Of a DNA stretch of 64,000 nucleotides, positions 15,429 to 43,520 are shown piece by piece. Below the pieces are notes generated by a model that searched no databases, was not told the origin of the DNA, and saw only the letters and a program-made list of their open reading frames with translations. Location of the stretch: the IMG/VR virus record IMGVR_UViG_3300024054_000008, positions 1 through 64,000 of that record; one strand, written 5' to 3'. Source of the stretch: a virus. The position numbers were made by a program, and so were the translations under genes. Position 1 is the first letter of the stretch; every line of letters begins with the position of its first letter.

Positions 15429-15482
15429 TAGTTATAACCATCAATCAAAGTTTCAGTATAAATGTCAATGTAGTATATTTAT

Positions 15483-17459
15483 ATGACAAATAAAAATAAA
15501 TTAATATTAATAACTATAGTTTCTCTTGCAATTTATTTGTTTTTGCCGATTTTGGCAAAATTTATTTTGATTAAAAAATTGGATAGCATTGAGATACCAT
15601 CAGACGTAGAATCGGTCAACTTAACATGGTTTGGAATAAATGCAAAAAATGTTCGTTCAAAAATTTGTAACAACAAAATATATACAAATTTTGAGAACAT
15701 ATCAGTCAAAATTGGGTTAGACTTAGAAATAAAACATATAAGATTAGAAAATGGTTCTATAGACATAAAGTCTATAGAATGTGTAGACAAAAAGACCTAT
15801 GCAAAATCAAAAAGAAGAAACACCAAATTTGAATTGGTAGATTCTTCAGTAAATTTGAGTGGCAATCTACCAAATACAACATTAGAAGGTGTTAATATAA
15901 ATAAAACAGACAATAAAACAGAATTTAATATAGAAAGCGTAGACATCAAATGGAAAGCAAACATAAAGTTAAAGAACGTTCATATTCTGAAATTAGATGA
16001 TAACATACAAATAAACAGCAAAGAATTAATGGTTAATAAACTAACCACTACTCTAACCACCACTAAAACAAATGAACAATCAAATGAATTTGATAAAATT
16101 TGGAATTATGTAGACAAAACATTTCCAATAGAATCGAAATTATCAGACACAAAATATACGGTAAAATTTGAATCAGAAAATACAAAAATAAATGATAATG
16201 AATTCAGCTTGGAATTCAATTTACGAAAAAACAATATTGAATTTAAAATAACAACAAACAACAAACAACAAATAAATGCAAATATCGTTTATGAAAAAAA
16301 GAATGACACGTTAAACTATGATTTAAATTTAGACGTTAAAAACATCAACGTAAATAATAAATTGATTTCAGATGAAAATGTGATTTTGAATTTACAAACA
16401 AATTTGAAAGGAAAACTAGAAAAAAATGCGTTAATAGGAACTGGCATATTCAATGTTTCTGACACATATACGACTATGTCATATAAATTAAAACGTGAGA
16501 CAGATCAATCAATAATTGAACTTGAAGCATCGTTGCAAGATTCACCGTGCCAAAAAGTAATAAATTCAATACCAAGCGGTATGAAAGGGAAACTAGAAAA
16601 AATAGAAGTTGAAGGAACATTCGGATTCGATACAAGCATAAAATACTATAGTAAGAACAAAGAAAAATCGGACGCGAAATTAAATATAAAAATGAAATGC
16701 AAGAAATGGTCTGTACCAAATGAAATGAACGTTAAAAATTTCAAAAAACCATTTGAACATATTGTATATGATATAAATAAAAATCAAAAATCAACAAAGT
16801 TAGGCCCAGGAACAAAAGATTGGTTTCCGATTGGTGCAATGTCGAGGTTTATAACATTATCAATAACAACAACAGAAGACCCGGGTTATGGAAAACATGC
16901 TGGCGTTATACCAAAAGCATTAGAAAATTCTCTTATAGAAAACTTGAAATCTGGCAGATTTGTAAGAGGTGGCAGCACAATACCGATGCAGCTCGCCAAA
17001 AATTTGTGGTTAGGCAGAAAGAAGAATATAGCCAGAAAAATTCAAGAGTTGTTTTTATCATCTTATTTAGTTGAATCAATAACTCAAGAAGAACTATTAG
17101 AACTATATCTAAACATTATTGAATACGGGCCGAATGTATATGGTATAAAACCAGCATCAGAATATTATTTTGACAAAAACCCGTCAAACTTATCATTGAG
17201 CCAATCATTGTTTATAGCATCAATACTACCAAACCCAAACAAACAAAGATTTGACTCAGACGGAAAATTAAATCAAGGAGCGCTGTTGTGGATAAAAAGA
17301 GTCATGAAGTCAATGTTAGATAACAATAAAATATCAGAAATTGAATATGAAAGAGGAATGCAAGAATGGCCAAAATTTAAAAAATCCGATTCATCTTCAG
17401 AAAGCCAAAAATTCTCTGATGAAGAGTTAAAAATAATCAAAGAATTGGAAACACACTAA
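15483..17459 (+). CDS. Membrane-anchored peptidoglycan glycosyltransferase (GT51, monofunctional MtgA-like domain) with large N-terminal region
   Basis: N-terminal TM helix; GT51 motifs TEDPGYGKHAG, RGGSTIPMQLAKNL, RKIQE, LELYLNIIEYG, SLFIASILPNP. No transpeptidase domain. Confidence 0.88.
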   Translation: MTNKNKLILITIVSLAIYLFLPILAKFILIKKLDSIEIPSDVESVNLTWFGINAKNVRSKICNNKIYTNFENISVKIGLDLEIKHIRLENGSIDIKSIECVDKKTYAKSKRRNTKFELVDSSVNLSGNLPNTTLEGVNINKTDNKTEFNIESVDIKWKANIKLKNVHILKLDDNIQINSKELMVNKLTTTLTTTKTNEQSNEFDKIWNYVDKTFPIESKLSDTKYTVKFESENTKINDNEFSLEFNLRKNNIEFKITTNNKQQINANIVYEKKNDTLNYDLNLDVKNINVNNKLISDENVILNLQTNLKGKLEKNALIGTGIFNVSDTYTTMSYKLKRETDQSIIELEASLQDSPCQKVINSIPSGMKGKLEKIEVEGTFGFDTSIKYYSKNKEKSDAKLNIKMKCKKWSVPNEMNVKNFKKPFEHIVYDINKNQKSTKLGPGTKDWFPIGAMSRFITLSITTTEDPGYGKHAGVIPKALENSLIENLKSGRFVRGGSTIPMQLAKNLWLGRKKNIARKIQELFLSSYLVESITQEELLELYLNIIEYGPNVYGIKPASEYYFDKNPSNLSLSQSLFIASILPNPNKQRFDSDGKLNQGALLWIKRVMKSMLDNNKISEIEYERGMQEWPKFKKSDSSSESQKFSDEELKIIKELETH

Positions 17460-28743: not shown

Positions 28744-29019
28744 TCAGTCTGTGGAAGAAGAATCAGACTGTGCATCAGATCCAGAATCTGACATAGACCC
28801 AGCTGACCCACCGGTTGAAGATCCTGACGATCCACCAGAAGATGACCCAGCGGCGCCGTCCGTTGACGTTCCGGCTGCGCCACCAGTGGCCGAACCGGCT
28901 GAACCACCAGTTGAAGCTCCGGCCGCTCCTCCAGTACCACCAGACTTCTTATCTTCATCATCACTGCCGCAGTTAACGACAGCCAAACCAACTATTAAAG
29001 CCACGGTGAATTTCTTCAT
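28744..29019 (-). CDS. Small putative lipoprotein with Gly/Ser/Ala-rich linker-like body
   Basis: MKKFTVALIVGLAVVN-C-GSDD: basic N-region, hydrophobic core, lipobox-like Cys; remainder GGAAG/GSSS repeats; SD GGAG. Confidence 0.65.
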   Translation of the reverse strand: MKKFTVALIVGLAVVNCGSDDEDKKSGGTGGAAGASTGGSAGSATGGAAGTSTDGAAGSSSGGSSGSSTGGSAGSMSDSGSDAQSDSSSTD

Positions 29020-29074
29020 AGTCTACTCCAAGCTATTCCTACATGTTTAATTTTATAAATGCTTGGAAATTAAA

Positions 29075-29287
29075 CGGGCCGGGAGTTCAGACTGAAATGG
29101 TCGTTACTAACAGCTGACACCTAAAGACTTGGGGCTTTGTGCTTATGGCTGACAAGTCTGAGTGCTAAATGCTACAATATCAGTGCCAGTGTAGATCGAT
29201 GATTCCACAGAGTGCTTCAAGCTGAGCGTACCATACGCCCAGCTCAGAACTCCATGGACAACCATTCATATCATCCCTCCCGGTCCG
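29075..29287 (-). ncRNA. Candidate ~213-nt structured RNA (multi-stem) downstream of the DIP1984-like gene
   Basis: Closing helix 29277-29287/29075-29085 (11 bp, 1 mismatch); second helix 29258-29266/29096-29104 (9 bp); hairpins 29220-29244 (11 bp), 29190-29209 and 29125-29159 (7 bp). Three G-U wobbles work on the minus strand (one on plus). GC-richer than the flanking intergenic DNA. Confidence 0.55.
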
Positions 29288-29296
29288 GAACGCATA

Positions 29297-29800
29297 TCAC
29301 AGCAAAACTGTGATATGGTTCATCTTCTCGACCGAATTATTTAAACGGTCGAATTGATCTTGGAGCTTCTCAACAAATGCTGAGCGTTCTGCTTCTGGTA
29401 AATCACATTTATAATGTGTAGTTGTTCTAATACGCTTGCCATCGTCATTATAGTCCCAACTATCATCTTTGGTGTCAACATGGGCACGACACGGCAAACC
29501 TTTCACCCAAACAATTTGACCTTTCAATTCCTGAAGGGTGCGAACTGCTTCAGCAAGATTTGTGGTTTTACCTTCAAAATCGAACGTAGTATTAGCATTA
29601 GTAATATAAACCATAGACTCTAGTTTTATAAGCTGATTCCTAATTTCATCAGACTTTTCAAGAGTTGCTTTAAATGAAAAAGCGGGCTTATTATCAACTA
29701 CATATGAAACGGACGAAGAAGCCCTAGCAAGATTGTCAGACAATTGACCCTTGAGCTTTTTAATTTGACGAAGAGCTTGTGAAATAGTTAGATTAGCCAT
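29297..29800 (-). CDS. DIP1984/DUF6847-like coiled-coil protein
   Basis: Pattern TISQALRQIKKL...ITNANTT..FEGKT.NLAEAV...L.QFDRLN..VE.MNH.T.L matches my recollection of the DIP1984 family layout. Confidence 0.6.
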   Translation of the reverse strand: MANLTISQALRQIKKLKGQLSDNLARASSSVSYVVDNKPAFSFKATLEKSDEIRNQLIKLESMVYITNANTTFDFEGKTTNLAEAVRTLQELKGQIVWVKGLPCRAHVDTKDDSWDYNDDGKRIRTTTHYKCDLPEAERSAFVEKLQDQFDRLNNSVEKMNHITVLL

Positions 29801-29902
29801 GCACGATACTACACCGACTTAGTTGTCAATAGTTCAGAAACTTCAGAAACCGGCTTTTTGTTTGTCAATCATGTTCATTAGGTGTATTAAATAGACTATA
29901 TA

Positions 29903-30586
29903 TTATATAGATGGAATGTACAAACCGTGCGAAACTGAATGGTAAGGAACGTTTGAAATTTCCTTATAATCAAACCCATTTATAAGAATTTCTCTAATTT
30001 CATCGGGTATTGATTGTCTAACAAAAATATGATTTTCAATTAGAAATTTTGGTTTATGTTTTTTAATCAGATTTAAGGCTCCGTTTAATGCCTCAACTTC
30101 GGCCCCTTCAACGTCGAATTTAACCCAATCAATTTTATTTGGCTGAACGCGTTCGTGCCAAACGTCAAGCGGCTCAACTTCAATAACATATGGATCATCA
30201 ATATTATCAACTAATGTTTGTGAACACACATTCAGATGACCGGTCGATGAATACACTCCAGATTTATATATAATGCATTTATCTGACCAACCATTTAATT
30301 TAAGAGATTCTTCAAGAGTCTCTTTCTCAGTTCTTTCATTTGGTGGACCCTGTGGTGACCAAGCATAAACAAAATTTGCCCCAACAGCTAGAGCTGTCAA
30401 AGCATATGAACCATAAGCCGCACCAACATCTAAAACAACATCGCCACTTGATATATGCCAATCACGGTCACGAACCGATGATTCATCATCAAATGAGAAC
30501 CAACTAGGATGATACGGATAAGTCTCCAAGCATTCTATTTTATACGAAAAACCGCGGAATGATAACTCCCTAACTGGCATCCACAA
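29903..30586 (-). CDS. FkbM-family methyltransferase
   Basis: VVLDVGAAYGSYAL, IDWVKFDVEGAEVEALNGA, PKFLIENH. Confidence 0.9.
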   Translation of the reverse strand: MWMPVRELSFRGFSYKIECLETYPYHPSWFSFDDESSVRDRDWHISSGDVVLDVGAAYGSYALTALAVGANFVYAWSPQGPPNERTEKETLEESLKLNGWSDKCIIYKSGVYSSTGHLNVCSQTLVDNIDDPYVIEVEPLDVWHERVQPNKIDWVKFDVEGAEVEALNGALNLIKKHKPKFLIENHIFVRQSIPDEIREILINGFDYKEISNVPYHSVSHGLYIPSI

Positions 30587-30591
30587 CTATA

Positions 30592-31803
30592 CTATCCTTT
30601 AATGTTAACTATTTCTTTCAAAGTATAAACAATGTCAACAAGATCAGATTGTGCGGCCATGACTGCGTTTATGTCTTTATATGCGGCTGGACTTTCATCG
30701 AGAACGCCGCTATCTTGACGACAAATTGTTCCAGAAGTTGCCTCTTTGTGCTGTGCTAACGTTATTGAACGTTTAGCATCACCACGGCTCATTACTCTTC
30801 CAGCACCATGAGAGCAACTACAAAAACTATCCGGATTTCCTTTTCCTTTAACAATATATGAAAACCCTGACATCGCACCAGGAATAATTCCTAACTCGTC
30901 CTGTCTGGCACTGATTGCACCTTTACGTGTTATCCAAACTTGCTCACCGAAATGTTCTTCTTTTCTAATATAGTTGTGATGATTATTTATAACTTCACCT
31001 TTTAAAGTGAATTTTGGGATACCGCTCTTCCTCATTGCGTCAATAACTGTTCTCAAGATTAGCTCACGATTAACTCTTGCGTACTCTTGACACCAATCAA
31101 CTGCATTCACATAATCATTAAAATGTTCAGCATCTTCTTCAAAATACGCGAGGTCTTTGTTTGGAAGTCTTACACCGAGACGTTCCATATCTTTTTTAGC
31201 AAGCTCTATGAAATGAGAACCAATTTTATTGCCAACGCCACGTGAACCGGAGTGGATCAAAATCCATACATTATCATCTTGATCTAAATTGATAGACACG
31301 AAATGGTTGCCACCACCAAGCGTTCCAAGTTGTTCAACGACTGGAGCTATTTTTGATCTACCATGGCGTCCAACAATTCCATCAAAATCAGGCTTCAGTT
31401 TCTCCCAGGCGTTATTGACGTAGCCTGGGGTTTTGCCCCATTGTCCTTCTCTGGCCTTATCAGCACTACCAACCGGCAAGACTTTTGATATGTGGTCATA
31501 TAAAAGTTGATCAGCTTTATCCTGGAGTTTATCGGCAGTCAATGAAGTCTGAATACTAATTACACCACAACCAATATCAACTCCGACCATAGCAGGTACA
31601 ATTGCTTTAATTGTTGGTATGACACTGCCAACCGTCGAACCTCGGCCAAAATGGACATCTGGCATAACAGCTATATGTTTATGAATAAATGAAAGAAGGG
31701 CAGTCTGAAGTAATTGGAGCTTAGCACCAGGTTCAAATGGGACGCCCTTAGTCCATGAATAGACAGGGACGTTTCCGCCTTCTAGGATTTCATAATTACT
31801 CAC
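30592..31803 (-). CDS. rtcB: RtcB-family RNA 2',3'-cyclic/3'-phosphate, 5'-OH ligase
   Basis: MPDVH, VGVDIGCG, GTLGGGNHF, HSGSRG, NHHNY, RKGA, SHGAGRVMSR, DESPAAYK. Confidence 0.96.
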   Translation of the reverse strand: MSNYEILEGGNVPVYSWTKGVPFEPGAKLQLLQTALLSFIHKHIAVMPDVHFGRGSTVGSVIPTIKAIVPAMVGVDIGCGVISIQTSLTADKLQDKADQLLYDHISKVLPVGSADKAREGQWGKTPGYVNNAWEKLKPDFDGIVGRHGRSKIAPVVEQLGTLGGGNHFVSINLDQDDNVWILIHSGSRGVGNKIGSHFIELAKKDMERLGVRLPNKDLAYFEEDAEHFNDYVNAVDWCQEYARVNRELILRTVIDAMRKSGIPKFTLKGEVINNHHNYIRKEEHFGEQVWITRKGAISARQDELGIIPGAMSGFSYIVKGKGNPDSFCSCSHGAGRVMSRGDAKRSITLAQHKEATSGTICRQDSGVLDESPAAYKDINAVMAAQSDLVDIVYTLKEIVNIKG

Positions 31804-32903: not shown

Positions 32904-34511
32904 TTATCGATACAAAACAAATTTCAATTTTGATTTAGTTGGCTTCTTCTCATAACCAAATTTCTCTGCGTATTCACGTTCTTTCATTTTCATTTTTTGA
33001 GCATGTTCGTAAAGAGTTTTTTTGTGAACGACATATCCTTCTGGACTAATATAAAAATAACTAACTGATGTTTCTTTTAAAAATTTCCAATTTGAAGCCT
33101 TATATATGGTTCCTGTATGGCCAAATGTTGGGTCTGCAAATGATATTATTACATCAATTGATTTAAATTCATCAAATAACAGTTTTGAACATCTGGATAA
33201 AAACCAGCTTGCAAAATTTTTCTTTTGATAATTTGGATGAATACAAAAACGATCAAGCTCAATAACTTTAGATGGGCTCAAATTCATAGAAGTTGCAACT
33301 TCTTTTCTGATAATTGGCGTAAATTTACACACCGCAATAAGATCTTTTTCAAGAAAAGCACCAACCACTAATTTTTCTTTCCTACCATATTGTGCGTAAT
33401 GAAACGAATTCAAAAAATCAACATACACATGGTTTTTTGAATTTCGATTTTTATCAATTTCATTGAACTTTCTAACTATAACATTTTCAAAATCAAACTT
33501 ATGTTGAATTTCATTAAAATCCTTTAATACAAATTTAGAAATCTTTTGTTTCACAATTTCTGGGTTAAAAAAATCTCGTTCATGAAGATACAAAATACGA
33601 AAATTTTGAAAATATTTATCAATGTACGAAAATTTTGAAGAGTCTCTTCTCATACCGTCAGGGGTATCATGCCAATATTCACCTTGAACCTCCACAAGCA
33701 CAGAATGGTCTGGAATAAAAAAATCAAAAAGATAATATCCAATTGCAAATTGTTGTTCAAATTTTAAATCTAAACTTTTTAAAATGTTGCCTGTAGCAAT
33801 CTCTATATTTGAACGATATCCATCAGTTGATACCTTCTGTACAGCTTTTAAACGTATGTGTTTAGCTTTCTCGCTTATTTCATAACACGAACGACATATA
33901 TACCGAAAAGATTCCGAAGATTTTCTCTTATGCCGTCTAATAGCATTTTTTAAAGAGTCAAATCTAATTATTATCTCATTATTACAACAAGAACAAACAA
34001 CTATTACTTTTTTACCTTTATCACGATACGAACCAAATTGTTGTAATGTTTTCTCTTGATTAATGGCAGAATCAATATCTGATTGCACTGGCATAGACCC
34101 GCCTGATTTACACTTTCTGCAAACGTATTTATAAATTAATCCATTTTTCTTATATTCCCATATTCTAAATTTTAGAGAACATATCTTTATACTATGGTAC
34201 GAATTGCACACAGAACATAAAACTACTACTAAACTATGTTTATTTTTTGGAGTGCCGTGAAGAAGTTTTGTTTTTTCAACAGAAACATGAGTTATTATTT
34301 CTGGATCTAATCGATTTTTGTTTTTTCTAGTGCAATAATTACATAGTATTATAGTATTATACCCATTACGACGAAGTCTAACTTTTAAAGAATTTAAGTT
34401 TATTACTGATTCACGCCCACAAGGACAATTGATAATTACTGGTGATTTGTTTTTAGGATTTCCATATACATCAATAGTTTTATTTTTGTCATAAAATTTA
34501 GACAAATCCAT
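32904..34511 (-). CDS. Zn-ribbon repeats + Vsr/DUF559-like nuclease + Mom-like GNAT domain fusion
   Basis: Three T...YG/HG/FG..P...V.V.C..C repeats; FDFFIPDHSVLVEVQGEYWH...LHERDF; IELDRFCIHPNYQKKNFASWF...SFADPTFGHTGTIYKASNW. Confidence 0.8.
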   Translation of the reverse strand: MDLSKFYDKNKTIDVYGNPKNKSPVIINCPCGRESVINLNSLKVRLRRNGYNTIILCNYCTRKNKNRLDPEIITHVSVEKTKLLHGTPKNKHSLVVVLCSVCNSYHSIKICSLKFRIWEYKKNGLIYKYVCRKCKSGGSMPVQSDIDSAINQEKTLQQFGSYRDKGKKVIVVCSCCNNEIIIRFDSLKNAIRRHKRKSSESFRYICRSCYEISEKAKHIRLKAVQKVSTDGYRSNIEIATGNILKSLDLKFEQQFAIGYYLFDFFIPDHSVLVEVQGEYWHDTPDGMRRDSSKFSYIDKYFQNFRILYLHERDFFNPEIVKQKISKFVLKDFNEIQHKFDFENVIVRKFNEIDKNRNSKNHVYVDFLNSFHYAQYGRKEKLVVGAFLEKDLIAVCKFTPIIRKEVATSMNLSPSKVIELDRFCIHPNYQKKNFASWFLSRCSKLLFDEFKSIDVIISFADPTFGHTGTIYKASNWKFLKETSVSYFYISPEGYVVHKKTLYEHAQKMKMKEREYAEKFGYEKKPTKSKLKFVLYR

Positions 34512-43008: not shown

Positions 43009-43520
43009 CCCCAGGCTGTGCTCTTACCAGCCGGACCTTTTGACCAAGACGGCTGTTTCTTTGTGCCGCTAGACCATTCACTTTCTTCACGAACCGTATA
43101 TTCATCACGCTCAGTAACCTGAGAAGTATCATCAGAATCGTAAGTCGGAACTCCCTTGCCGTGGAAAGTCGGACCGGTGTGGTGCATATAAGGTTCGTCA
43201 GATTCGCCCTCAATAACTTTCTGCGGATTTTCAAAAGTTTTCATGTAGGATTCATCAGAATCCTGTTCAATAACTTTAGCCTGACGTTTTCTAAACGATT
43301 CTTCACCAAAAACTTCGGCTTCAAGTTTATCGGAGAACGAATCTATATTCTTAATAATTGAAGCTGTAACCTCAGTTTTTGGAAGCTTTTTTTCCTCAAC
43401 TAGAGCTTCAATATTGCTAGCAATATTCTCCAAAGTCGAGAGTACGTGACTGGCAACCCGCTTGTCCATATTCATAATCTCCGTTCTTTTCGGATAGAGC
43501 ATAGAAGCCCCAACATTCAA
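43005..43520 (-). CDS. Small acidic head-region protein
   Basis: 171-aa ORF (true start may be the later MDKRVAS); contains RVAS and NIAS motifs. Confidence 0.55.
   Translation of the reverse strand: MNVGASMLYPKRTEIMNMDKRVASHVLSTLENIASNIEALVEEKKLPKTEVTASIIKNIDSFSDKLEAEVFGEESFRKRQAKVIEQDSDESYMKTFENPQKVIEGESDEPYMHHTGPTFHGKGVPTYDSDDTSQVTERDEYTVREESEWSSGTKKQPSWSKGPAGKSTAWG

What the first reader, a model, noticed from the sequence alone, without database searches (positions are those of the whole stretch)
29075..29800. DIP1984-like coiled-coil gene followed by a ~213-nt multi-stem RNA, near rtcB: candidate ribonucleoprotein system
Seen on the minus strand, starting 10 nt after the 29297 stop: 5' CGGACCGGGAG pairs with 3' CUCCCGGCCCG to close the whole element; AAUGGUUGU pairs with ACGACCAUU; inside are hairpins AGCUGGGCGUA/UACGCUCAGCU, UGUGGA/UCUACA and AGACUUG/CAAGUCU, plus repeated AGCAC(UC) and UGUCAGC words. 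An inner GGAGUUC (29247-29253) can also pair with the 3' GAACUCC (29082-29088), competing with the closing helix (switch or pseudoknot). This is far more structure than a terminator needs. The gene has its own TG-TAGTAT box, so gene plus RNA may form one transcript. Inference: the protein binds its cognate RNA. Because the RNA ends are juxtaposed and RtcB is encoded two genes upstream, processing or circularisation is conceivable but speculative.
Basis: partly seen in the sequence, partly recalled or inferred. Interest (0 to 1): 0.75.

Follow-up and report, generated by a model that had tools for sequence, protein, structure and literature searches.

The report
Phage heptad-repeat RNA with partner protein
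Right after a small helical-protein gene, this large uncultivated phage encodes a real, conserved 213-base folded RNA that carries ten evenly spaced 7-base "UNAGC" units; gene and RNA always travel together and match no catalogued RNA family, so they are probably two halves of an undescribed protein-RNA particle, while the neighbouring RtcB ligase gene is not part of it.

Summary
Window 29075-29287 (minus) is a 213-nt structured RNA that starts 10 nt after the stop of a 167-aa gene. The protein has the DIP1984/3KDQ fold, but its sequence scores below the family cut-offs.

- **Conservation:** all 35 distinct homologous loci that keep downstream DNA carry the same element on the same strand (one match is weak because the contig ends).
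- **Closing helix:** it covaries strongly. Ten of 11 pairs change on both sides, and 91.6% of cells pair against 42-54% in slid controls.
a core of about ten heptads, consensus U-N-A-G-C-N-N, with AG at strict 7-nt spacing. Consensus folding leaves this core unpaired.
- **Distant homologues:** at 24-36% identity, including phage T5 gene T5.085, the downstream gap also holds an end-paired element with a roughly 7-nt period but a different repeat word.
- **Databases:** no Rfam match, and no paper on the protein family's function.

My reading: gene and RNA are co-transcribed, and several protein copies bind the heptad array, as TRAP or HutP bind spaced triplets. Binding is inferred, not shown.

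The RtcB link, circularisation and the competing helix are not supported. This scan has found the same gene-RNA pair before on other DNA.

The parts
29297..29800 (-). 167-aa gene for a DIP1984-fold (DUF6847-like) protein: four long helices plus two beta-hairpins
   Evidence: ORF. Weak PF20935 and NF038048 matches, both below cut-off. AlphaFold2 model has pLDDT 97.8. Foldseek best hits are 3KDQ chains, TM 0.77-0.83. 289 representative relatives found.
29806..29813 (-). TGTAGTAT box 6 nt before the ATG; a possible extended -10 that would give a nearly leaderless mRNA
   Evidence: Only 3 copies in the window, not enriched, so its function is untested.
29075..29287 (-). The whole 213-nt heptad-repeat RNA element
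   Evidence: Fold z = -3.6. It is the only hit of covariance model R1 in the window and in the 183-kb record, at 113.7 bits. No Rfam match.
29277..29287 (-). P1 closing helix, 5' arm (purine-rich, holds GGGAG)
   Evidence: Covariation on 25 sequences: 10 of 11 pairs change on both sides, 0 of 500 shuffles reach the observed score.
29075..29085 (-). P1 closing helix, 3' arm
   Evidence: G-U to A-C ratio is 24:8, which fits folding of this strand as RNA.
29063..29074 (-). U-rich tail (UUUAAUUUCC) directly after P1; the likely 3' end by termination
   Evidence: A U-rich stretch follows the P1 3' arm in most homologues. Inferred, not mapped.
29258..29266 (-). P2 helix, 5' arm
   Evidence: A helix of different sequence lies at the equivalent place in many relatives, but it is weak per sequence (median z about 1).
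29096..29104 (-). P2 helix, 3' arm, directly after the last heptad
29220..29244 (-). P3 hairpin (11-bp stem); the variable region of the family
   Evidence: Relatives carry one or two hairpins of unrelated sequence here.
29190..29209 (-). P4 hairpin (UGUGGA/UCUACA)
   Evidence: A hairpin with many different stem sequences lies at this position in the relatives, seen by eye in the alignment; not formally counted.
29175..29183 (-). Conserved YGAUAY motif (CUGAUAUUG) just before the heptad array
   Evidence: Alignments.
29104..29175 (-). Array of ten heptads (3, then a 2-nt spacer, then 7): GUAGCAU UUAGCAC UCAGACU / UCAGCCA UAAGCAC AAAGCCC CAAGUCU UUAGGUG UCAGCUG UUAGUAA
   Evidence: Over 31 elements, 216 AG-AG distances equal 7, against about 41 for other distances. 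The logo is U at -2, A, G, then C at +2. RNAalifold does not pair this core in the consensus.

Best explanation
The 213-nt element is one member of an uncatalogued family of structured RNAs encoded directly 3' of genes for DIP1984-fold (DUF6847-like) proteins.

Proposed mechanism:
1. Gene and RNA are transcribed together from a promoter upstream of the gene.
2. The long closing helix P1, followed by a U-tract, ends the transcript and clamps the two RNA ends into a nuclease-resistant domain.
3. Inside, about 70 nt of ten evenly spaced U-N-A-G-C units stay largely single-stranded. Each unit is bound by one copy, or one half of a dimer, of the upstream protein. The result is a defined multi-subunit protein-RNA particle, much as the TRAP ring binds spaced GAG/UAG triplets or HutP binds UAG-N4 repeats.

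**Shown here:** the RNA fold and its covariation, the 7-nt periodicity, the strict gene-RNA linkage, and the protein fold.

**Inferred:** co-transcription, protein binding and stoichiometry.

**Unknown:** what the particle does. The company it keeps (RNase P RNA, tRNA arrays, RtcB, NADAR, Macro genes) points loosely to RNA or tRNA-centred phage-host conflict.
For: - **Linkage.** The heptad core or the full model was found directly downstream, on the same strand, in all 35 distinct related loci that keep downstream DNA (nhmmer; covariance-model; loci). One of these matches is weak because the contig ends (L072).
- **Structure.** P1 covaries. Ten of 11 pairs change on both sides. 91.6% of cells pair, against 42-54% when partners are slid. 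There are 72 compensatory cells against 21 +/- 5 in shuffles. P1 was also found independently in 22 of 22 sequences by a plain helix search and by RNAalifold on a MAFFT alignment.
- **Strand.** G-U to A-C is 24:8 in P1, and a U-tract follows P1.
- **Repeats.** AG has lag-7 periodicity (216 against about 41). Only AG(C), and U two bases before it, are conserved within each heptad, while the other positions vary freely. That is the signature of a repeated protein-binding word. The array is unpaired in the consensus fold.
- **Motif changes with the protein.** Homologues at 24-36% identity have an end-paired downstream element with other words: AAG in L077, AGG in L080, UCAA in the Bacteroidota loci and AAAG in T5.
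- **Protein.** Conserved polar residues (N68, N154, E158, N161, R11, R26) sit on a confidently modelled helical scaffold.
Against: - No direct evidence of binding or of a discrete transcript.
- The protein is not basic (pI 7.8; family median 6.7).
- It has no recognised RNA-binding domain.
- Parts of the array can pair in single-sequence folds (P5, P6).
- In the distant homologues the 7-nt period is clear in only 3 of 9, and model R1 does not hit them. The change of repeat word with the protein therefore rests on a few loci read by eye.
- Gene order alone could be kept for expression reasons.
Confidence: 0.6

Rival explanations
1. The element is a cis-acting 3' untranslated region or attenuator. 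The protein, or another factor, binds the heptads to control formation of the P1 terminator. That would set mRNA stability, feedback on the protein's own synthesis, or read-through into whatever lies downstream, as TRAP and HutP do in 5' leaders.
For: The RNA starts 10 nt after the stop codon, and no separate promoter is predicted before it. P1 followed by a U-run looks like a long-range terminator. In eight relatives an RNase P RNA gene follows within tens to hundreds of nt on the same strand.
Against: The downstream neighbours differ from locus to locus: a lipoprotein-like ORF, NADAR, PadR, RNase P RNA, tRNAs. The 91-aa genes after the window copy and after L002 are unrelated. So no common regulated target exists. 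A 200-300-nt multi-domain RNA with conserved hairpins is more than attenuation needs. In L030 and L073 the RNA lies 150-170 nt from the stop.
Confidence: 0.2
2. The RNA acts without the upstream protein, as a sponge or decoy. The ten UNAGC units would titrate a host RNA-binding protein or a host defence ribonuclease. The adjacent gene would be linked only for expression, or would serve as a helper.
For: Multi-copy short motifs are typical of sponge RNAs such as CsrB (established knowledge). Neighbouring genes in several loci are counter-defence or RNA-repair types: RtcB, NADAR, Macro, YAcAr. tRNA and RNase P RNA genes lie nearby.
Against: The linkage to this one protein family holds across very different phages and G+C contents. 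The repeat word differs in distant protein branches. Both are easier to explain if the encoded protein is the ligand than if it is a host factor.
Confidence: 0.13
3. The element works at the DNA level, as an origin, a packaging site or an iteron array flanked by an inverted repeat and bound by the DIP1984-like protein.
For: It has an inverted repeat plus short direct repeats. The Atlas lists a structural resemblance (TM 0.75) to a 'Siphovirus Gp157 family' cluster. From my own knowledge, not checked here, such genes sit in replication modules.
Against: A 7-bp period does not fit the DNA helix. G-U pairs outnumber A-C 3:1, which points to one strand folding. The internal hairpins also vary in sequence while keeping pairing. 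A U-tract follows P1 on the gene strand only. The element sits among RNA genes in the same orientation.
Confidence: 0.04
4. One reading: the juxtaposed ends are cut and joined or repaired by the nearby RtcB, giving a circular or processed RNA.
For: RtcB is two genes upstream in this window, and the RNA ends are paired.
Against: No RtcB lies next to the pair in any other locus with gene calls. None was found anywhere in four related phage records of 130-354 kb. The 3' end looks like an ordinary terminator end.
Confidence: 0.02

Closest known systems
DIP1984 family / Pfam DUF6847 (PF20935; NCBIfam NF038048; crystal structure 3KDQ of Corynebacterium diphtheriae), function unknown
   Same: Same fold: four-helix scaffold with beta-hairpins, TM 0.77-0.83. 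There are weak end-to-end profile matches. Closer relatives of the window protein carry precomputed PF20935 hits. Two canonical DUF6847 genes in Bacteroidota genomes also have an end-paired, terminator-tailed gap downstream.
   Different: The window protein scores below both curated cut-offs. It is only 15-16% identical to 3KDQ. It belongs to a branch seen so far only in uncultivated phages. No function has been published for the family.
TRAP-trp leader and HutP-hut terminator RNA of Bacillus (oligomeric proteins that read evenly spaced GAG/UAG triplets); from established knowledge
   Same: A row of about 10 short words with an invariant AG, free spacers and regular spacing. HutP sites are UAG-N4, which is also a 7-nt period. 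The first three window units are UAG-N4-UAG-N4-CAG.
   Different: The protein fold is unrelated. The array lies 3' of the protein's own gene inside a large closed RNA domain, not in the 5' leader of a regulated operon. There is no terminator/antiterminator alternative. Binding has not been shown.
CsrB/RsmZ-type sponge RNAs that bind many CsrA dimers; from established knowledge
   Same: A stand-alone structured RNA that presents many copies of a short word.
   Different: CsrB words (GGA) sit in hairpin loops at irregular spacing, and the protein is encoded elsewhere. Here the words are strictly periodic and the presumed partner is encoded next door.
Type III toxin-antitoxin systems (ToxIN); from established knowledge
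   Same: A protein gene coupled to a repeat-containing RNA in one transcription unit.
   Different: In those systems 36-45-nt repeats lie upstream of an endoribonuclease toxin and are processed into units. Here 7-nt units lie downstream of a helical protein with no nuclease fold.
Rsr(Ro)-Y RNA-RtcB modules of bacteria and mycobacteriophages; from established knowledge
   Same: An end-paired non-coding RNA near RtcB and tRNA-related genes.
   Different: There is no TROVE/Ro protein and no Y-RNA match in Rfam. RtcB is not conserved with the pair.
   Same: Nothing measurable here.
   Different: No match at E up to 10 in the region, at E up to 1 in the whole 183-kb record, or at E up to 1 in nine distant loci.

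Membership tests
DIP1984 family (NF038048) / DUF6847 (PF20935) | Profile score at or above the curated cut-off | tested here: not met
   NF038048 23.8 bits against a cut-off of 70. PF20935 17.9 bits against 27. The genome-wide rescan gives 22.5 bits.
DIP1984 family (NF038048) / DUF6847 (PF20935) | Fold of the founding structure 3KDQ | tested here: met
   The AlphaFold2 model (pLDDT 97.8) has 3KDQ chains as its top two Foldseek hits, TM 0.77-0.83 and prob 1.00; every other hit has TM 0.36 or less. The family profile A1 finds 3KDQ only at E 0.095.
Any Rfam 15 family (including Y RNA, 6S, tmRNA, RAGATH-27) | Covariance-model match at the gathering score, or at least a suggestive E-value | tested here: not met
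   No hit at gathering score in the window. Nothing overlaps the element at E up to 10. RF03100 has no hit at E up to 1. ARAGORN finds no tRNA or tmRNA.
Heptad-repeat RNA paired with DIP1984-like genes (uncatalogued; defined here and in earlier notes of this scan) | Lies directly 3' of a DIP1984-fold gene on the same strand | tested here: met
   It starts 10 nt after the stop. The arrangement is the same in all 35 related loci with downstream DNA.
Heptad-repeat RNA paired with DIP1984-like genes (uncatalogued; defined here and in earlier notes of this scan) | Long covarying helix that pairs the two ends, followed by a U-rich tail | tested here: met
   window arms at 29287-29277 and 29085-29075.
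Heptad-repeat RNA paired with DIP1984-like genes (uncatalogued; defined here and in earlier notes of this scan) | Row of about 6-15 units with a 7-nt period and a short conserved word | tested here: met
   Ten units in the window; median 10 per element in its subgroup; word U-N-A-G-C.
TRAP / HutP-type protein-RNA attenuation systems | TRAP or HutP protein fold | tested here: not met
   No Pfam hit to either family. The fold is a helical bundle of the 3KDQ type.
TRAP / HutP-type protein-RNA attenuation systems | Repeat array overlaps mutually exclusive terminator and antiterminator helices in a 5' leader | tested here: not met
   The array lies 3' of the gene. A conserved alternative partner for the P1 arm is absent (1 of 31 elements above the 95% shuffle level).
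TRAP / HutP-type protein-RNA attenuation systems | Protein oligomer binds one repeat per subunit | not testable with these tools
Type III toxin-antitoxin | Tandem 36-45-nt RNA repeats upstream of an endoribonuclease toxin gene | tested here: not met
   The units are 7 nt and lie downstream of the gene. The protein has no nuclease family or fold match.

The most novel reading that the evidence does not exclude
DIP1984-fold proteins and their heptad-repeat RNAs form a widespread, so far unnoticed class of ribonucleoprotein particles. About ten subunits would assemble as a ring or rod on a 70-nt array. The class would be carried by many large phages, including the model phage T5, and by some cellular genomes. 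It would act in the fight over tRNA and RNA integrity, for instance as a decoy or scaffold against host RNA-cutting defences. That would explain why it sits beside phage tRNA arrays, RNase P RNA, RtcB, NADAR and Macro genes.
Probability: 0.25. Interest if true: 0.85.

Novelty: categorically new. Interest (0 to 1): 0.7.

Why it matters
DIP1984/DUF6847 is a structurally solved protein family with no known function. No paper in the searched library discusses its role. Showing that its phage branch is always coupled to a dedicated structured RNA with a periodic binding-site-like array gives the family its first concrete, testable hypothesis.

It also adds a new structured RNA class of 200-300 nt to phage biology. 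Such classes are rare outside tRNA, tmRNA and RNase P RNA.

A weak homologue with a comparable downstream element exists in phage T5 (T5.085, currently annotated 'tail fiber protein'). The hypothesis can therefore be tested with ordinary genetics and biochemistry in a laboratory phage.

Tried and rejected
- **Rfam.** Searched the whole window at gathering score, the region at E up to 10, 15 related loci and 9 distant loci, and RF03100 on its own. Nothing overlaps the element.
- **tRNA or tmRNA.** ARAGORN finds none in the window.
- **Cultured phages.** blastn of the RNA and tblastn of the protein against the GenBank phage collection gave no match.
- **Close-relative scan of viral contigs with the single protein.** Nothing found.
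- **RNAduplex with shuffles as a test of P1.** Uninformative, because long interior loops let shuffles score as well. I replaced it with a strict helix search.
- **P2.** A helix lies at the equivalent place in many relatives, but per sequence it is not significant (median z about 1).
- **P5 and P6 inside the array.** They pair in the window and in some relatives but in different registers, and RNAalifold does not keep them. I treat the array as mainly unpaired.
- **Competing helix or switch.** Not conserved.
- **RtcB linkage.** Rejected.
- **Conserved 91-aa downstream gene.** Rejected. The equal lengths are coincidence.
- **Pattern scan of viral contigs for AGC heptads.** It returned mostly simple 7-nt microsatellites without the gene. 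Among the 80 loci returned, only the already known contig gave a full-length model hit. This is only a limited test of whether the RNA occurs without the gene.
- **PF20935 in cellular genomes.** In 301 small genomes of one phylum and 401 Bacteroidota genomes the family is rare (1 and 2 genomes over the cut-off).
- **Literature.** Searches for DIP1984, DUF6847, Gp157, heptanucleotide repeats, phage RNase P RNA and T5 non-coding RNA found nothing relevant.

Full report
**Setting.** The window is the first 64 kb of a 182.7-kb IMG/VR virus record that CheckV rates 43% complete. It is probably a jumbo phage, and the window carries portal, protease and collagen-like genes. On the minus strand the order is:
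- a Mom-like/DUF559 fusion (32904-34511);
- an unassigned 247-aa ORF;
- RtcB (30592-31803);
- an FkbM-type methyltransferase (29903-30586);
- the 167-aa gene (29297-29800);
- a 277-nt gap;
- a 91-aa lipoprotein-like ORF.

**The observation.** The 213-nt stretch 29287-29075 folds at -85 to -86 kcal/mol, better than all 200 dinucleotide shuffles (z = -3.6). It has 50% G+C in a 37% window. Rfam 15 has nothing here at gathering score, or at E up to 10. ARAGORN finds no tRNA or tmRNA.

**The protein.** Sequence matches to DUF6847 and DIP1984 lie below the curated cut-offs. An AlphaFold2 model built on 83 relatives is very confident (pLDDT 97.8). Its only good structural neighbours are the chains of 3KDQ, the DIP1984 crystal structure, at TM 0.77-0.83. 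An exhaustive phmmer search finds 289 representative relatives. The Atlas places the nearest clusters mostly in viruses. No cultured phage in the GenBank collection has a detectable homologue of the window protein. No paper in the library discusses DIP1984 or DUF6847 function.

**Comparative test.** I fetched contigs encoding relatives of 29-59% identity from four sources:
- Logan, JGI and ENA assemblies;
- IMG/VR;
- JGI metagenomes.

This gave 35 distinct sequences that keep DNA after the gene. Their G+C ranges from 33% to 64%. A profile of the repeat core or covariance model R1 finds the element in every one, always on the gene's strand. It begins 3-50 nt after the stop in most, and about 150-170 nt after it in L030 and L073. 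One match (L072) is cut by the contig end and is weak. In the window, and in the whole 183-kb record, the model hits only this site (113.7 bits).

**Structure.**
- *P1.* A plain helix search finds an end-closing helix of 11-30 bp at the equivalent place in 22 of 22 sequences, with very different arm sequences and usually a U-rich tail after the 3' arm. RNAalifold recovers it from a MAFFT alignment.
- *P1 covariation.* On the 25-sequence model alignment, 10 of 11 pairs show changes on both sides. 91.6% of cells pair, against 42-54% when partners are slid by 1-3 columns. There are 72 compensatory cells against 21 +/- 5 in shuffles, and none of 500 shuffles reaches the observed values on four of five measures. 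The alignment was fitted to the structure, which favours it; the independent helix search and the slid controls argue that the result is real.
- *Strand.* G-U pairs outnumber A-C 24 to 8, as expected if this strand folds as RNA.
- *P2.* A second helix lies directly after the repeat array in many members, but it is too short to be significant per sequence.
- *P4.* A hairpin before the array keeps pairing through many different stem sequences. I saw this by eye and did not count it.
- *Variable region.* One or two further hairpins fill it.

**The repeat array.** After a conserved YGAUAY motif come about ten units of 7 nt. In the window there are three units, a 2-nt spacer, then seven units (29175-29104).
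- Across 31 elements, AG-AG distances of exactly 7 occur 216 times, with 167 at 14 and 128 at 21. The mean for other distances is 41.
- In the window element 10 AG pairs lie at distance 7, and none at 1-6 or 8.
- Within a unit only AG (by construction), C after it (63-82%) and U two bases before it (65-84%) are conserved. The rest is free.
- The consensus fold leaves the array unpaired. The pairings seen in single folds (P5, P6) use different registers in different members.

Conserved short words at fixed spacing, with free spacers and no conserved pairing, are what a multi-site protein-binding array looks like.

**Distant branches.** I examined homologues at 24-36% identity:
- L077, L078 and L080;
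- six Bacteroidota genome loci;
- two canonical DUF6847 genes in Bacteroidota;
- T5.085 of phage T5, a weak profile match at E 4.8e-4.

All are followed by a 200-540-nt gap. Reading these gaps by eye, I found an end-pairing helix and usually a U-tail. Read by eye, the repeat word is different: AAG, AGG, UCAA, CACA and AAAG.

The 7-nt period exceeds all 200 shuffles in 3 of the 9 metagenome and genome loci analysed (T5 was not among them) and is weaker in the others. Model R1 does not recognise the four of these loci it was run on (L077-L080). This part is therefore suggestive only. If it holds, the word changes with the protein, which is the pattern expected of a cognate pair.

**Context.** RtcB is not part of the module. 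No other locus with gene calls has it nearby, and four related phage records of 130-354 kb lack it entirely. What does recur is other RNA biology:
- In eight relatives a complete class-A RNase P RNA follows the element on the same strand (250-308 bits).
- In two relatives tRNA arrays follow.
- Two tRNAs precede a canonical DUF6847 gene in L091.
- NADAR, Macro and YAcAr genes occur nearby in others.

This hints at, but does not show, a role in RNA- or tRNA-centred conflict.

**Interpretation.** I take the element to be the RNA half of a protein-RNA particle whose protein half is the upstream gene product. I hold this at about 0.6. Rival readings are:
- a cis-acting 3' UTR or attenuator (0.2);
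- a sponge for a host factor (0.13);
- a DNA-level element (0.04);
- an RtcB substrate (0.02).

The TGTAGTAT box sits 6 nt before the ATG here, and also 6 nt before the gene at 15483, but it occurs only three times in the window.

**Relation to earlier notes of this scan.** A word search showed that the same kind of gene-RNA pair had been reported from other genomes: phages, a giant virus, Asgard archaea and a megaplasmid.
- I had reached the heptad array and the TRAP/HutP analogy before reading those notes, so they agree with this report but are not independent evidence.
- I partly checked the T5 claim, with a weak protein match and a plausible element read by eye.
- I checked the RAGATH-27 suggestion, and it does not hold for this window.

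**Limits.**
- No expression data were available.
- Protein-RNA binding and oligomeric state are untested.
- P2-P4 were not formally tested for covariation.
- The test for RNA copies without the gene was limited to 80 pattern hits.

Noticed in passing
L017:2314-2653, L019:2312-2641, L021:2301-2791, L022:2722-3065, L030:2480-2843, L032:2414-2775, L033:2307-2645, L035:2476-2976: Eight related uncultivated phages encode a complete bacterial class-A RNase P RNA (250-308 bits) directly after the heptad-repeat RNA on the same strand. Phage-borne RNase P RNA is unusual in itself. The window's own record has none in its 183 kb.
   Followed up: partly
L026:2935-3166 and L031:2734-2964; L091:1187-1396: tRNA arrays lie just downstream of the pair in two phage loci. 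Two tRNAs lie just upstream of a canonical DUF6847 gene in a Bacteroidota genome.
   Followed up: no
T5 record NC_005859: 43505-44143 (T5.085) and the gap 43142-43504: T5.085 is annotated 'tail fiber protein', as is PHROG 1491, which weakly matches this family. It gives a weak profile match to the DIP1984-like family (E 4.8e-4). Its downstream gap holds an end-paired stretch with a GAUAUUACCGACA motif and about 11 AAAG units spaced 7-8 nt. The annotation may be wrong.
   Followed up: partly
L118:7074-7142, L112:5504-5591, L160:7629-7709, L146:1515-1581, L097:3044-3105, L172:9447-9527: Other IMG/VR phage contigs carry near-perfect tandem heptanucleotide arrays, (UCAGCGG)n, (UCAGCCG)n and (UCAGCUU)n, of 9-14 units. 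They have no DIP1984-like gene within the fetched flanks and no closing helix. The search pattern selects for such arrays, so kinship with the element is unproven.
   Followed up: partly
window 32904-34511 (-): A 535-aa ORF combines a DUF559 (Vsr-like endonuclease) region with a Mom-family domain (E 4.6e-24). This suggests a DNA-modification function fused to a nuclease-like domain.
   Followed up: no
window 29903-30586 (-) and L077:1790-2410: An FkbM-type methyltransferase (PF05050) lies just upstream of the DIP1984-like gene in the window. It is also close upstream of a 26%-identical homologue in an unrelated contig. This may be coincidence or a loose association.
   Followed up: no
window 29806-29813 (-) and 15469-15476 (+): TGTAGTAT ends 6 nt before the start codon of two genes that have no visible Shine-Dalgarno sequence in between. 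This would give nearly leaderless mRNAs. There are only three copies in the window, not above chance.
   Followed up: partly
window 28744-29019 (-): The 91-aa ORF after the RNA starts with a lipoprotein-like signal (hydrophobic stretch, then Cys) followed by a Gly-rich tract. It is unrelated to the 91-aa genes after the element in L002 and L005.
   Followed up: partly
L080 = G001:C15 (NCBI assembly GCA_964573855.1): A 31%-identical, N-terminally extended homologue (217 aa) with a 542-nt downstream gap sits in a 0.9-Mb genome bin next to IleRS and TrmB genes. The family is otherwise almost absent from that phylum (1 of 301 genomes over the cut-off). It may be a phage-derived insert or a binning artefact.
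   Followed up: partly
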